A stretch of 64,000 nt of DNA from positions 1 to 64,000 of the forward strand of contig NJBI01000004.1 of the NCBI GenBank assembly GCA_005222975.1. Reading direction: 5' to 3'. Source of the DNA: Promethearchaeota archaeon Loki_b31 (GTDB lineage: Archaea; Asgardarchaeota; Lokiarchaeia; Sigyniarchaeales; SOKP01). The translations under genes and the position numbers were made by a program. A model generated the notes under the pieces. It was given only the letters and a program-made list of their open reading frames with translations, searched no databases and was not told the origin of the DNA. Positions 1-34,500 of this stretch are shown here, piece after piece; within the stretch, counting starts at the first letter, position 1; each line of letters begins with the position of its first letter.

Positions 1-1757
1 ATTATTATTCGGATATCCCCGGAGTATTTTTGACCTATAACAAGACAATCAGCGATCTCAGGTAATTGTTCTACAACATTATAGATTTCTGCAGTACCAA
101 TTCGTACTCCAGAAGGTTTTAAAACTGCGTCCGATCGACCCCAGAAGGTAATACCACCTGTATCGCTATGAATGACTATATAATCGCCATGTCTCCAAAT
201 CATTTTTCCTACGTCTTTATAGTAGTCAAAATAGGCAGCTTTATATTTTGTCATGTTATCGTCATCGCCCCAAAAATAGATTGGCATCGAAGGTACGGGA
301 GCTTCACACACAAGTTCGGCCTGTAAATCTTCAACAGGTTCAGCTTTTTCAGAATACGATTCTACTTTCATTGCTAAAGCACGCCCTTGCAATTCTCCAG
401 AATATACCGGTAAAATAGGTATCGCTCCAGCAAAACAACCGTTAATATCTGTTCCGCCACTGATTGAATTGAAAAAGAGATCTTTTTTAATCTCTCGATA
501 GACATATTCAAAACCTTCAGGAGATAATGTAGATGCAGTTTGCGAGATCTCTCTTAATGCACTTAGGTCATATTTCTCAGCAGGTTTTACCCCAAGTCCC
601 ATTAGGTAATGAATATACGCAGCACTAGTACCAAATATAGTTACCTTATGTTTTTCAATTAATTCAAAAAACCTTAATGGTTCTGGATATAGCGGATTAC
701 CATCATATAAGAATATTGTTGCGCCCGTGGCTAAGGCACTGATAAGCCAGTTCCACATTTTGGCTGGTATAAAGATACCTTATACCATCATCCATGAGGG
801 CGCAGTAATATAATTAATGACATCGCTTCTTTTTACATCAGTAGATAAGATTAATTCTTTTAAATGATTGATCAATACGCCACCAGCGCCTTGAACCATA
901 CACTTTGGTTTCCCCGTTGTTCCTGATGAAAACATCACGTATAAAGGATGATCAAAAGGTAATTGTTCAAATTCAAGACCAGGATCTTCCTCTTTTGAAA
1001 TAAAATCATCCCAATGTACTGCATTTGGGATGTGGCTTATCTCAGGTTTTCCATCAGTGATGTAAGTCGCCACTACTACTTTTTCTATCGAAGGAATAGC
1101 TTCAACCACAGTTTTAGCATTCTCGGTGATATTAAATTCTTTGTCCCTATAGAAATATCCATCAACAGTAAAGAGAACTTTTGGCTCAATTTGTCCAAAA
1201 CGATCGATGACTGCGTTCGGTTGTAATTCTGCGCCACACGATGCCCAAGTTGCGCCAATGGTAGTAGCAGCTAACATTGCAATAGGGGTTTCAATCAAAT
1301 TTGGAATATATGAAACAACTCGATCCCCTACTTTGACACCCATTTCCTTGAGAGATTTTGCTAAGCGTGCAACTACTTTATTTAGTTCGGCATAAGTAAT
1401 TTGCTTCGAAACCTTGGTTTCTCCTTGAAAAACAAAAGCTAATTGGTCATCTTTATACTTCAATAAGTTTTCCGCAAAATTCAATTTTGCTCCGGGAAAC
1501 CATTTAGTTCCTGGGAAAATGTTTAGATCCTCAACCACTCTATCATATATCTTGGAAGCTACAATACCTCCAAAGGCCCACATAGCCGCCCAGAAATCCT
1601 CAATCTTTTCTACAGACCATCTATATAGATCTTTACCTCCCTTAATTTCTTGACCATATTTTTTATTTACATATTCGATAAACTTGGTTATCTCAGCATT
1701 TTTAATCCATTCAGCGGAGGGTTCCCATAATTTTTTTTTATTTGAAATGATTAGCAC
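1..1757 (-). CDS. Acetoacetyl-CoA synthetase (acetoacetate-CoA ligase), interrupted by a 30-nt putative BHB intron at 759-788; 3' end runs off the window
   Basis: N-half has WFPGAKLNFAENLL and the adenylation motif MFSSGTTGKPKC. After the insert the same frame continues without stops to position 1 (MWNWLISALATG...SISGGTDINGCF...WRHGDY...GRSDAVLKPSGVRIGTAEIY). Confidence 0.93.
759..788 (-). other. Putative BHB-type mRNA intron (30 nt) in acetoacetyl-CoA synthetase
   Basis: mRNA CA-UGGA-UG|A-UGGUAUAAGG(UAU)CUUUAUACCA-GCCA-AA|A-UG: 10-bp inner stem, two 3-nt bulges, central helix with one A.G mismatch. Removal gives ...W-M-M-W-N-W. Confidence 0.8.
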
Positions 1758-2085: not shown

Positions 2086-3105
2086 GTGTTTAATTTTTCA
2101 GAAATGAAGATATTAAAAGAAGGTACAGGAGAGATCTTCTGTAAAAATACGCCTTCTGAAGTGAGAAAATGGACCAGAGAAAATAAATCGCGTGCTTTAA
2201 TAGATAAACGTATGAAAATTAAAGACGCCGTAAAAAAGTATGTTAAAGACGGTGATTATTTAGCTATTGGAGGATTTGGCCACATTAGAATCCCCATGGC
2301 TATAATATACGAAATTGTAAGGCAACGAATTAAAGATTTATCCGTTGCGGGGCATACTGCTGTTCAAGATATTGATATGTTAATGGCCGGTGGTTGTGTA
2401 TCTGCTGTTGATATTGCTTATGTCGTTGGATTTGAGCTTCGAGGCCTTTCTGGAGTTCAGAGACGGCAGTTTGAAAGTGGGCAAGTTAAAAAAACAGATT
2501 ACACTAATGGAGCAATGTCTTATCGTATTCGAGCTGGTGCTCAAGGGGTACCGTTTATTCCAGTTAAAGTGATGCTTGGAACTGATACGATGATGCATTC
2601 CCCTGGTAAAGTTGTTAAGTGCCCATTTACCGGAGAAAAAGTATTGTTACTGCCATCATTAAACCCAGATGTTTGTATAATTCACGCACATAGAGCAGAT
2701 ATGTACGGAAACATTCAGATTGACGGACACATCGTTAAAGACGACTTACAAGCGAGAGCCTCAAAGAGGGTTATAGTCATGTGTGAAGAATTAATAAGCG
2801 ATGACATCATTAGACAAGACCCAGGTAAGACCGTCATTCCTTTTTATATGGTAGATGCTGTTGTAGAACAACCTTGGGGTTCACATCCTGGCAATATGCC
2901 GTATAAATACTATTTTGATCACACATTTACTGAAGATTACTTAACAGTAGGCAGGAACAAAGATCCGAAAGTATTAGAAAAATGGTTAGAAGATTGGGTA
3001 TATAGTCTTGATAGTTTTGACGATTATTTAGTGAAATTAGGACCTAGAAGGCTCTATAACCTTAGAGATGCTGAATTTTTAAGAGAACCAGTGAGGGGAG
3101 ATTAA
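2086..3105 (+). CDS. Family I CoA-transferase subunit A (glutaconate CoA-transferase-like); start may be ATG 2104
   Basis: VKDGDYLAIGGF, GAQGVPFIP, HAHRADMYGN, PWGSHP motifs. Confidence 0.9.
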   Translation: MFNFSEMKILKEGTGEIFCKNTPSEVRKWTRENKSRALIDKRMKIKDAVKKYVKDGDYLAIGGFGHIRIPMAIIYEIVRQRIKDLSVAGHTAVQDIDMLMAGGCVSAVDIAYVVGFELRGLSGVQRRQFESGQVKKTDYTNGAMSYRIRAGAQGVPFIPVKVMLGTDTMMHSPGKVVKCPFTGEKVLLLPSLNPDVCIIHAHRADMYGNIQIDGHIVKDDLQARASKRVIVMCEELISDDIIRQDPGKTVIPFYMVDAVVEQPWGSHPGNMPYKYYFDHTFTEDYLTVGRNKDPKVLEKWLEDWVYSLDSFDDYLVKLGPRRLYNLRDAEFLREPVRGD

Positions 3106-3108
3106 AAA

Positions 3109-3888
3109 ATGACCGCTGAAAATTATTCATTAAGAGAATTAATGGCAGTTGTTGCAGCTAGGCAATTGCAAGATGGAAAAGCAGTAGCAGTGGGAACGGG
3201 GTTACCGCTAGTAGCAACAATGTTTGCTCAGCTAACTCACGCTCCCAATTTGGTTATCTTTTTTGAAGCTGGTGGAATCGCACCACAATTACCTACACTT
3301 CCCGTATCCGTTGGAGATTCACGAACTATCCATAAAGCCTTATGCACAACCACATTAATCGATATTATGGATTCTATGCGTAGAGGTTTTATTGATTACG
3401 CCTTCTTAGGTGGAGCACAAATAGATAGTTATGGTAATCTTAATTCCACTATGATCGGAGACGATTACGAAAAACCTAAAGTGCGATTTCCGGGTTCAGG
3501 AGGTGCAAACGATTTTGGTTCACTCGCTTGGGAAACGCTTATAATAATGGATCGACATAGTCCTCGAAGATTTGTTGAAAAAGTAGATTTCATTACAACA
3601 CCGGGTTTTTTATATGGTCCTGGAGCCAGAGAAGAGGAGGGTTTATCTGAAAATACTGGTCCTTCGCGCGTTATTACAGATTTATGTTTAATGGATTTTG
3701 AACCAGAATCAAAACGAATGAGGTTAATTGCAACTTATCCGGGAATTACGGTTGATGATGTAATAAAAGCAACTGGTTTTGAATTGATTATTGCAGATGA
3801 TGTGGAAATTACAAAACCACCCACTGAGGAGGATTTAAGATTATTGCACGAAGTAATAGACCCTAACGGTTTTGTATTTAAAAAATAA
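3109..3888 (+). CDS. CoA-transferase subunit B (glutaconate CoA-transferase-like)
   Basis: FFEAG catalytic Glu region, FLGGAQIDSYGNLN, PGSGGAND; directly follows subunit A. Confidence 0.9.
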   Translation: MTAENYSLRELMAVVAARQLQDGKAVAVGTGLPLVATMFAQLTHAPNLVIFFEAGGIAPQLPTLPVSVGDSRTIHKALCTTTLIDIMDSMRRGFIDYAFLGGAQIDSYGNLNSTMIGDDYEKPKVRFPGSGGANDFGSLAWETLIIMDRHSPRRFVEKVDFITTPGFLYGPGAREEEGLSENTGPSRVITDLCLMDFEPESKRMRLIATYPGITVDDVIKATGFELIIADDVEITKPPTEEDLRLLHEVIDPNGFVFKK

Positions 3889-26024: not shown

Positions 26025-26147
26025 AGGCTCGTGGCGAAGCATGGATATCGCAGCTGCCTCCTACATAATGTGCATGGAGAAAGCAGAAGATCGGGGGTTC
26101 AATATAATATGCGCTTCGCGTTTCTTGAACATATCCCCTCGGGCCTG
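26025..26147 (+). tRNA. tRNA-Arg(CCU) with two BHB introns (26064-26081 at 37/38; 26103-26132 at 58/59)
   Basis: Acceptor AGGCTCG/CGGGCCT, D-stem GCGA/TCGC, anticodon CCT, T-arm GGGGG-TTCAA^AT-CCCCT, discriminator G; central helices CUCC/GGAG and GUUC/GAAC. Confidence 0.93.
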
Positions 26148-34257: not shown

Positions 34258-34500
34258 CTACAATAATTTCATTGCCAAAGTCATGTCGTTGACGGTAAGT
34301 ATAAAGATTTAAAGTTAAATACTAAAAATTTTCTTTCTGCCGGCATGTCGAGTCATTTCTAATGCTTTATTTGTTACTCCTCTAGCAGCTTTCTCTAAAT
34401 AATCAATAAGAGCGTCTACTGCTTCACGAGCAACCATTTCAGCGCCGTTATCTTTCATTAACTTTCGAACTGGTGACCAGGCAAATACTTTTTTAGCCAT
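34258..34500 (-). CDS. Archaeal histone (HMf-like, 70 aa after splicing), join(34500..34331,34300..34258)
   Basis: Spliced product MAKKVFAWSPVRKLMKDNGAEMVAREAVDALIDYLEKAARGVTNKALEMTRHAGRKKLTVNDMTLAMKLL; GGAGG SD upstream; T-rich tract downstream. Confidence 0.93.
34301..34330 (-). other. Putative BHB-type mRNA intron (30 nt) in the histone gene
   Basis: mRNA AG-AAAG-AA|A-AUUU...AAAU-CUUU-AU|A-CU: 4-bp helix AAAG/CUUU flanked by 3-nt bulges AAA and AUA; contains two in-frame UAA. Confidence 0.88.

What the first reader, a model, noticed from the sequence alone, without database searches (positions are those of the whole stretch)
759..788. Second 30-nt BHB-like intron, in the conserved WMMWNW motif of acetoacetyl-CoA synthetase
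Seen in sequence: the only lesion in this gene is ATGGTATAAGGTATCTTTATACCAGCCAAA, which is in frame and contains TAA. It forms a 10-bp hairpin (UGGUAUAAGG/CUUUAUACCA) flanked by bulge UGA, central helix UGGA/GCCA (3 pairs plus an A.G mismatch), bulge AAA and outer pairs CA/UG. Cutting at UG|A and AA|A gives UGG AUG AUG UGG AAC UGG (WMMWNW), the family consensus. About 250 downstream codons are stop-free and conserved, which argues against a decaying pseudogene. Caveat: the duplicated ATG makes the boundary ambiguous by a few nt, and the BHB is imperfect.
Basis: partly seen in the sequence, partly recalled or inferred. Interest (0 to 1): 0.92.

Follow-up and report, generated by a model that had tools for sequence, protein, structure and literature searches.

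The report
Tiny tRNA-type intron in enzyme gene
A 30-base hairpin carrying a stop codon sits inside an otherwise intact and strongly conserved acetoacetate-CoA ligase gene of an Asgard archaeon, and comparative evidence says it is cut out of the mRNA by the tRNA-splicing machinery, a kind of intron confirmed so far in the coding region of only one archaeal gene (cbf5).

Summary
Window 759-788 (minus strand) is an in-frame 30-nt insert with a TAA that splits the WMMWNW motif of an acetoacetate-CoA ligase. It is not gene decay. The same 30-nt insert sits at the same site in 6 of 32 orthologs of the genus and in 53 alleles overall (35 distinct sequences). Every full-length copy but one gives a 664-677 aa ORF once the insert is removed. 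dN/dS is 0.015-0.10 in both exons. The inner hairpin shows compensatory changes in 6 of its 9 pairs. In two alleles the ATG repeat is broken, and only the cut sites predicted by the bulge-helix-bulge (BHB) rule restore the motif.

The genome encodes an alpha/beta EndA pair and RtcB. The same cutting rule repairs five other genes. One is the single-copy aIF2-gamma, whose 29-nt P-loop insert is kept in 13 species.

The BHB is relaxed: the central helix has 3 pairs plus an A.G mismatch. An identical intron lies in gene backgrounds only 78-95% identical, with mosaic flanks, so it spreads by recombination.

No RNA data could be obtained, so splicing is inferred and not shown. First-stage notes of this scan list similar inserts elsewhere in this genome.

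The parts
759..788 (-). 30-nt intervening sequence (proposed BHB micro-intron) with an in-frame TAA at 782-780
   Evidence: It is precisely absent from 26 of 32 genus orthologs. It is the only 25-35 nt indel in window 1-21500 against relatives that are 90-94% identical.
789..1757 (-). Exon 1 of acetoacetate-CoA ligase, ending in ...SWM. The start codon near 1757 is not settled.
   Evidence: NF002937 profile positions 3-319, E 5e-110. dN/dS is 0.03-0.10 between intron-bearing alleles.
3..758 (-). Exon 2, beginning MWNW.... It runs off the contig start and continues on contig C78.
   Evidence: profile positions 320-565, E 1e-101. dN/dS is 0.015-0.046. C78:2-277 matches residues 494-585 at 98%.
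765..787 (-). Inner helix h' of the intron: 10 bp in G000 (9 bp in most alleles) plus a 3-5 nt loop
   Evidence: the MFE fold contains it; 94% of cells are paired in 38 distinct rows, 6 of 9 pairs change on both sides, and covariation is 0.137 against 0.072 for shuffles (0 of 500 reach it).
791..794 (-). Exon strand of the central helix (UGGA). It is fixed by the single-codon residues Trp and Met.
   Evidence: U-A, G-C and G-C are invariant in 38 rows; the fourth position is mismatched in 37 of 38.
761..764 (-). Intron strand of the central helix (GCCA)
   Evidence: CCA is invariant. The first base is G in 36 rows, U in L100 (a perfect 4-bp helix) and A in L118.
788..790 (-). 5' bulge UGA, with the predicted cut between 789 and 788
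   Evidence: Rule: cut after the second bulge base. This is the only register that restores the motif in L069 and L079.
758..760 (-). 3' bulge AAA, with the predicted cut between 759 and 758
   Evidence: AAA in 37 rows and AGA in one. All six mRNA inserts of this genome that I checked have A-N-A here.
795..796 (-). Outer helix h, exon CA of the Ser codon TCA, pairing with UG at 756-757
   Evidence: C-G in 37 of 38 rows and A-U in 35 of 38. The Ser codon is TCA in 35 of 38 intron-bearing rows but in only 6 of 27 intron-less orthologs. This contrast is confounded by linkage to the intron.

Best explanation
Window 759-788 (minus strand) is a tRNA-type micro-intron of the relaxed bulge-helix-bulge kind, inside the mRNA of a functional acetoacetate-CoA ligase of a Promethearchaeota (Asgard) archaeon.

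Proposed mechanism:
- The pre-mRNA folds so that the four exon bases UGGA, just upstream of the 5' splice site, pair with GCCA near the 3' end of the insert (3 pairs plus A.G).
- This places two 3-nt bulges on opposite strands, between a short exon-exon helix (CA/UG) and a 9-10 bp intron hairpin.
- The heteromeric (alpha-beta)2 splicing endonuclease EndA cuts after the second base of each bulge, and RtcB joins the exons.
- The product restores ...SWMMWNW... without gain or loss of a residue.
- The in-frame stop, kept in every allele, truncates any protein made from unspliced RNA.

At the DNA level the intron with short exon flanks moves between diverged lineages, and is also lost, by homologous recombination.

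Shown: the insert is real, is inherited, is tolerated in a gene under selection, has a selected hairpin, and fits the cutting rule. Inferred: excision from the RNA, and the identity of the enzymes.
For: 1. The gene is functional.
- 53 alleles carry the insert and 35 of the insert sequences are distinct. All are exactly 30 nt.
- ORFs after removal are 664-677 aa in every full-length copy except L074, which gives 631 aa.
- dN/dS is 0.015-0.10 in both exons with dS of 0.5 up to saturation. The sister alleles L004 and L021 give 0.039 for exon 2 at dS 0.63.
- The exons abut at profile positions 319 and 320.

2. The RNA structure is under selection.
- Six of the 9 inner-stem pairs carry compensatory changes, and 0 of 500 shuffles reach the observed covariation.
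- The loop varies freely and CCA of the central helix is invariant.

3. The register test is passed. In L069 and L079 only the BHB-rule cut sites give WMMWNW.

4. The machinery is present.
- There are two EndA paralogs of about 200 aa. One has the Tyr/His/Lys motif and the other lacks the His.
- RtcB is present.
- Asgard EndA is described as the (alpha-beta)2 type with the loop linked to broad specificity (PMC5829648).

5. The same rule repairs five other genes of this genome: two histones, a thiolase, an FGGY kinase (also 3 of 4 central pairs) and aIF2-gamma.
- aIF2-gamma is single-copy.
- Its 29-nt frameshifting P-loop insert is kept at one site in 13 genus orthologs.
- One of these is a 30-nt variant, and another has a different sequence with a perfect central helix.
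Against: - No RNA evidence.
- The BHB is not canonical. The central helix has only 3 Watson-Crick pairs in 37 of 38 rows, and the outer helix is 2 bp and is lost in 3 alleles (Ser codons TCT or AGT).
- RNAfold does not choose the BHB form. It scores -9.0 against an MFE of -15.7 kcal/mol.
- BHB-like flanks occur by chance at 3% of comparable hairpins.
- My genome-wide BHB plus ORF-rescue scans showed no excess over a mirror-geometry control.
- Exon 2 starts with ATG and a stop is always kept in the insert. A two-polypeptide reading also predicts both features.
Confidence: 0.8

Rival explanations
1. Split gene. The insert divides the ligase into two separately translated polypeptides, one ending ...SWMMV and one starting MWNW..., which assemble into an active enzyme. 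The RNA is never spliced.
For: A stop codon is kept at codon 3 of the insert in all 35 variants, as TAA, TAG or TGA. An ATG follows the insert directly. Both halves are under purifying selection.
Against: - The ATG is simply the conserved Met of WMMWNW.
- There is no conserved Shine-Dalgarno-like motif in the 20 nt before it (alignment A4). The histone gene in the same window does carry GGAGG upstream of its start.
- This reading does not explain the selected hairpin or the invariant CCA complementary to the exon.
- The break lies inside a motif conserved as far as the solved Streptomyces enzyme 4WD1.
- Sister inserts in aIF2-gamma, the histones and the FGGY kinase have no ATG after them, and one shifts the frame inside a P-loop.
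Confidence: 0.07
2. Programmed translational bypass, as in T4 gene 60 or the mitochondrial byp elements. The ribosome takes off at one AUG, slides over the hairpin and lands on the next AUG.
For: In G000 the insert is flanked by identical ATG codons. It begins with a hairpin and holds a stop.
Against: - The stop is not adjacent to the take-off codon. A sense codon, GUA, intervenes.
- In L069 and L079 the repeat is broken, and a hop from AUG to AUG would delete one Met of the invariant motif.
- The histone, aIF2-gamma and thiolase inserts have no matching take-off and landing codons.
- The complementarity between the exon and the 3' end of each insert has no role in bypassing.
Confidence: 0.04
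3. The insert is removed from the RNA, but by an enzyme other than EndA that recognises the hairpin. The resemblance to a BHB would then be partly coincidental.
For: The central helix is imperfect and the outer helix is dispensable in 3 alleles. BHB-like flanks are not rare by chance.
Against: One cutting rule restores conserved motifs in six unrelated genes whose inserts share architecture but no sequence. Four of the six have a perfect 4-bp central helix. No alternative enzyme is suggested by any result.
Confidence: 0.06
4. A decaying pseudogene, or the footprint of a small mobile hairpin element with a 3-bp target duplication.
For: There is an in-frame stop, and in G000 a flanking ATG repeat.
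Against: There are no other lesions in 53 alleles except possibly L074. dN/dS is 0.10 or less. The sequence is single-copy in the genome, has no terminal inverted repeats, and the repeat is not conserved.
Confidence: 0.02

Closest known systems
BHB intron in the cbf5 pre-mRNA of Crenarchaeota (Watanabe 2002; Yokobori 2009, PMC2738675)
   Same: A short intron in a protein-coding region. It has a BHB at the exon-intron junctions, occurs in archaea with heteromeric EndA, and shows patchy gain and loss among related species.
   Different: The gene is different (a metabolic ligase, not cbf5) and so is the lineage (Promethearchaeota/Asgard). The central helix is relaxed, at 3 pairs plus A.G. There is evidence of lateral spread with mosaic flanks. 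It is one of several interrupted genes in the same genome. cbf5 splicing was shown experimentally; this one was not. As of 2020 cbf5 was stated to be the only coding-region case (PMC7714728).
Non-canonical tRNA introns of Asgard archaea (PMC11291895; bioRxiv 10.64898/2026.10.13.758758)
   Same: Same presumed enzymes and the same size range. Both show repeated gains and preferential occurrence where a BHB can form. The window itself holds a candidate tRNA-Arg with two such introns.
   Different: The host RNA is an mRNA, so excision has to preserve a reading frame. Neither paper's main text describes an mRNA intron, and the preprint never uses the word mRNA.
BHB intron in the 5' UTR of Haloferax volcanii HVO_1309 (PMC7714728)
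   Same: An mRNA substrate of EndA, with a circular excised intron.
   Different: It is 46 nt long and lies in the untranslated leader, not in the coding sequence. The host is a euryarchaeon.
Unconventional HAC1/XBP1 mRNA splicing (IRE1 endonuclease plus RtcB or Trl1 ligase); comparison from general knowledge
   Same: A tiny non-spliceosomal intron in a coding region (26 nt in XBP1), defined by RNA hairpins, with exons joined by a tRNA ligase. Removal changes what is translated.
   Different: The endonuclease and the recognition motif are different. Those introns act as regulatory switches, and no regulation is shown here.
Translational bypass elements (T4 gene 60; byp elements of Magnusiomyces mitochondria); comparison from general knowledge
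   Same: A short untranslated insert with a hairpin and a stop inside an intact ORF.
   Different: Bypass needs matched take-off and landing codons. That requirement fails in alleles L069 and L079 and in the sister inserts of this genome.

Membership tests
Archaeal BHB intron (EndA substrate) | Two 3-nt bulges on opposite strands, each directly 3' of its strand of the central helix | tested here: met
   Bulges UGA (790-788) and AAA (760-758) in the required handedness.
Archaeal BHB intron (EndA substrate) | Central helix of exactly 4 base pairs (canonical hBHBh') | tested here: not met
   There are 3 invariant pairs. The fourth is A.G in 36 of 38 rows, A-U in L100 and A.A in L118. This fits only the relaxed class. 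The FGGY kinase insert of the same genome is likewise 3 of 4.
Archaeal BHB intron (EndA substrate) | Flanking helices: h from exon-exon pairing and h' inside the intron | tested here: met
   h is CA/UG, 2 bp, present in 35 of 38 rows. h' is 9-10 bp with compensatory changes.
Archaeal BHB intron (EndA substrate) | Cuts after the second base of each bulge give the correct exon junction | tested here: met
   WMMWNW is restored and the exons abut at profile positions 319 and 320. The register is unique in L069 and L079.
Archaeal BHB intron (EndA substrate) | The host encodes a splicing endonuclease of broad specificity and an RNA ligase | tested here: met
   Alpha-like and beta-like EndA genes and RtcB. 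Specificity is inferred from PMC5829648 and was not measured.
Archaeal BHB intron (EndA substrate) | Excision observed in RNA, or cleavage by EndA in vitro | not testable with these tools
Acetoacetate-CoA ligase (NF002937 / TIGR01217) | Full-length match above the curated cut-off | tested here: met
   Exon scores of 368.6 and 341.2 bits sum to more than the 639-bit cut-off, although the C-terminus is cut by the contig end. An intron-less ortholog hits PDB 4WD1 at E 1e-163.
Programmed translational bypass | Matched take-off and landing codons, with a stop directly after take-off | tested here: not met
   ATG/ATG are present in G000, but a sense codon precedes the stop. The match is broken in L069 and L079 and absent in the sister inserts.
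MITE-like or IS-derived hairpin element | Multiple copies, terminal inverted repeats, target-site duplication | tested here: not met
   There is one copy in 3.5 Mb at up to 4 mismatches. The hairpin is offset from the ends of the insert, and the ATG repeat is not conserved.

The most novel reading that the evidence does not exclude
Promethearchaeota of this genus carry a whole population of roughly 30-nt EndA-type micro-introns in protein-coding genes, including the essential single-copy aIF2-gamma. These introns are polymorphic between close species and spread laterally, together with short exon flanks, by homologous recombination. That would make them the first mobile, multi-gene mRNA intron system in the closest prokaryotic relatives of eukaryotes. 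It would also mean that many 'split' or 'pseudo' genes in Asgard MAG annotations are intact genes.
Probability: 0.65. Interest if true: 0.9.

Novelty: new member of a known kind. Interest (0 to 1): 0.8.

Why it matters
- Six literature searches found BHB introns inside archaeal coding regions confirmed only for cbf5 of Crenarchaeota. This locus adds a metabolic gene in the Asgard lineage.
- With 53 natural alleles it is an unusually rich test case. The alleles give the cut sites, the bases that may vary, and evidence that the intron moves between lineages.
- If splicing is confirmed, gene callers will need an intron-aware step for these genomes.
- The substrate range of Asgard EndA becomes directly testable.
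- The question of how protein-spliced introns arrive at new sites, named as open in the 2026 tRNA-intron preprint, gains a tractable example with recombination tracts that can be read off the sequence.

Tried and rejected
- Genome-wide census. Three scans combined BHB geometry with ORF rescue, and one was a hairpin-anchored count. None showed an excess over an exact mirror-geometry control. Junctions between adjacent genes and AT-rich hairpins swamp the signal. The scans did recover the thiolase and FGGY cases. I therefore make no claim about how many such introns the genome holds.
- Covariation with the six genus alleles alone was not significant (240 of 500 shuffles reached it). It became significant only with 23 and then 38 distinct rows.
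- The first alignment used wrong minus-strand coordinates and was discarded.
- The first intron of the C25 histone could not be fitted cleanly to the rule by hand and was left out.
- Stop-codon read-through giving a 10-residue insertion was rejected. The inserted 'codons' vary without regard to coding, and the stop is always kept.
- ARAGORN and Rfam found no RNA gene in the window.

Full report
**What is there**

The window is the first 64 kb of contig C83 of a 3.52-Mb, 31.5% GC metagenome-assembled genome. Records that carry the same locus are titled Promethearchaeota, the Asgard phylum.

On the minus strand, 3-1757 encodes an acetoacetate-CoA ligase. Its only lesion is an in-frame 30-nt stretch at 759-788 with TAA at 782-780. 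NCBIfam aligns the upstream part to profile positions 3-319 and the downstream part to 320-565 of NF002937. Removing the 30 nt therefore neither adds nor loses a residue. An intron-less ortholog matches the solved Streptomyces enzyme 4WD1 at E 1e-163, and WMMWN is conserved there.

**It is not decay and not an assembly error**

- Of 32 orthologs in the genus, 26 lack the 30 nt precisely and 6 carry a 30-nt insert at the same site.
- A pattern anchored only on exon sequence found 25 further alleles in metagenome contigs. It also found the insert in 22 species genomes.
- In total there are 53 alleles and 35 distinct inserts, all exactly 30 nt.
- After removal of the insert, every copy with enough flanking sequence is a 664-677 aa ORF. 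L074 ends about 35 codons early.
- Between intron-bearing alleles dN/dS is 0.03-0.10 for exon 1 and 0.015-0.046 for exon 2, with dS from 0.5 to saturation.
- The sister pair L004 and L021, whose inserts have diverged about as much as their genes, gives 0.039 for exon 2 at dS 0.63.
- Exon 2 is therefore translated in frame in lineages that carry the stop.
- Against relatives 90-94% identical in DNA, this insert is the only 25-35 nt indel in the first 21.5 kb of the window.

**Structure**

On 38 distinct 60-nt rows the inner hairpin is paired in 94% of cells. Six of its nine pairs carry changes on both sides (19 cells). The covariation score is 0.137 against 0.072 for shuffles, and none of 500 shuffles reaches it. 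Structures with the partner slid by 1-3 columns drop to 28-44% pairing. The loop varies freely.

The three central pairs U-A, G-C and G-C never vary. The exon side is fixed by Trp and Met codons, so the informative point is that the intron's CCA is invariant. The fourth central position is A.G in 36 rows, A-U in L100 and A.A in L118. The motif is therefore a relaxed BHB and not a canonical one.

The 2-bp outer helix is present in 35 of 38 rows. Its exon side is the Ser codon TCA, which is used by 35 of 38 intron-bearing rows but only 6 of 27 intron-less orthologs. Linkage to the intron confounds this contrast.

RNAfold predicts the hairpin but not the central helix: the BHB form scores -9.0 against an MFE of -15.7 kcal/mol. 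BHB-like flanks occur at 3.2% of comparable hairpins in this genome. The geometry by itself is weak evidence.

**Register test**

In alleles L069 and L079 the first insert base is U, which breaks the repeat. There only one 30-nt deletion restores WMMWNW. It is the deletion predicted by cutting after the second base of each bulge. A ribosomal hop from AUG to AUG would drop one Met in those alleles.

**Machinery and sister cases**

The genome has two EndA paralogs of about 200 aa. One keeps the Tyr/His/Lys catalytic motif and the other has lost the His. It also has RtcB. This matches the (alpha-beta)2 enzyme with the loop linked to broad specificity that is reported for Asgard and TACK archaea (PMC5829648).

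Following leads from first-stage notes, I applied the same cutting rule to five other inserts in this genome.

| Gene | Place | Length | Central helix | Junction restored |
|---|---|---|---|---|
| Histone | window 34301-34330, minus | 30 nt | AAAG/CUUU | RKK-LTVND |
| Second histone | C25:1631-1660 | 30 nt | GAAA/UUUC | not recorded |
| Thiolase | C58:47823-47852 | 30 nt | GGUA/UACU | not recorded |
| FGGY kinase | C8:23600-23629 | 30 nt | AACC/GGUC, 3 of 4 pairs | TNQRET |
| aIF2-gamma | C32:7216-7244 | 29 nt | AUGG/CUAU | GHVDHG-KTT |

The inserts share architecture but no sequence. Each has its own 4 nt complementary to its own upstream exon, which is what a BHB intron requires and what a transposed element would not have.

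aIF2-gamma is single-copy. Its frameshifting insert is kept at the same P-loop site in 13 of about 29 genus orthologs. One variant is 30 nt long. Another (L153) has a quite different sequence with a perfect AUGG/CCAU helix. An essential gene interrupted in this way in many species means that removal at the RNA level must exist in this genus. The ligase insert most economically uses the same route.

**Evolution**

- On the gene tree the six genus alleles fall inside one 18-member clade, and at least four changes of state are needed.
- The closest relatives of G000 lack the insert. Yet G000 shares an identical insert with G049, whose gene is only about 78% identical in DNA.
- The identical 30 nt occur in six gene backgrounds that are 78-95% identical to each other.
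- Around the site, identity is near perfect for 24-60 nt upstream and 50-100 nt or more downstream, and then drops sharply to background.
- At matched overall divergence, the 60-nt flanks on each side are 87.7% identical between intron-bearing alleles, against 77-78% for the other kinds of pair.
- The intron-less sister allele L002 carries a foreign patch from -31 to +101 that resembles a different intron-less clade.

The intron is therefore both gained and lost by short-tract homologous recombination.

**Rivals**

- A two-polypeptide split gene explains the kept stop and the ATG. It does not explain the selected hairpin, the exon-complementary CCA, the absence of any conserved ribosome-binding motif, or the sister inserts that have no ATG.
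- Translational bypass fails on L069 and L079 and on the sister inserts.
- A pseudogene or a mobile-element footprint is contradicted.
- An unknown hairpin-specific nuclease cannot be excluded without biochemistry.

**Literature**

Six full-text searches found no description of BHB introns in Asgard mRNAs. Of the two papers on Asgard tRNA introns, the preprint never uses the word mRNA and the 2024 paper's intron passages concern tRNA genes only. A 2020 paper states that cbf5 is the only coding-region example. A 2009 paper notes that others were only predicted.

**Verdict**

I rate it at 0.8, because no RNA evidence could be obtained. It is a new member of a known kind. It matters mainly because of its lineage, because it is one of several such inserts in the genome, and because of its recombinational mobility.

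Noticed in passing
window 780-782 (minus), and codon 3 of all 35 insert variants: Every variant keeps a stop at the third in-frame codon, as TAA, TAG or TGA. The few substitutions seen in that codon all preserve a stop. This may be selection to terminate translation of unspliced RNA. The statistical support is only marginal.
   Followed up: partly
window 34301-34330 (minus): A 30-nt insert with a canonical hBHBh' (outer AG/CU, central AAAG/CUUU, bulges AAA and AUA) splits a histone gene. Removal gives ...RHAGRKKLTVNDMTLAMKLL. There is no ATG and no codon repeat at the junction.
   Followed up: partly
G000 C32:7216-7244 (minus); loci L127-L156: The single-copy aIF2-gamma has a 29-nt frameshifting insert between GHVDHG and KTT. 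The insert is present in 13 of about 29 genus orthologs and precisely absent in the rest, with a 30-nt variant (L136) and a sequence-divergent variant (L153).
   Followed up: partly
window 26025-26147: A first-stage note reports a tRNA-Arg with two introns here. ARAGORN and Rfam at the gathering threshold both report no RNA gene anywhere in the window, so standard tools miss it.
   Followed up: no
window 1-277 and G000 C78:2-277: The start of contig C78 overlaps the ligase 3' region at 98% protein identity and extends the ORF. The gene is therefore complete across a contig break, with slight strain variation.
   Followed up: no
L002 (G021), -31 to +101 around the intron site: The intron-less sister allele of G000 has a roughly 130-nt patch that matches a different intron-less clade (L006/L008-like). 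This is an apparent intron loss by gene conversion.
   Followed up: partly
L100, L106, L111, L112 (genome contigs): MAGs titled Odinarchaeota, Thorarchaeota and Hodarchaeota carry the same intron in ligase genes that are 80-86% identical in protein to G000. Either the labels are unreliable or the gene has moved between lineages.
   Followed up: no
L074: One metagenomic intron-bearing allele ends about 35 codons early (306 downstream codons against 341-344 in the others). It is the only allele with a possible second lesion.
   Followed up: no
window 2086-3888 (plus): Two adjacent ORFs of 339 and 259 aa lie divergent from the ligase. By eye they resemble CoA-transferase subunits, which would suit an acetoacetate-handling cluster. 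I did not test this.
   Followed up: no
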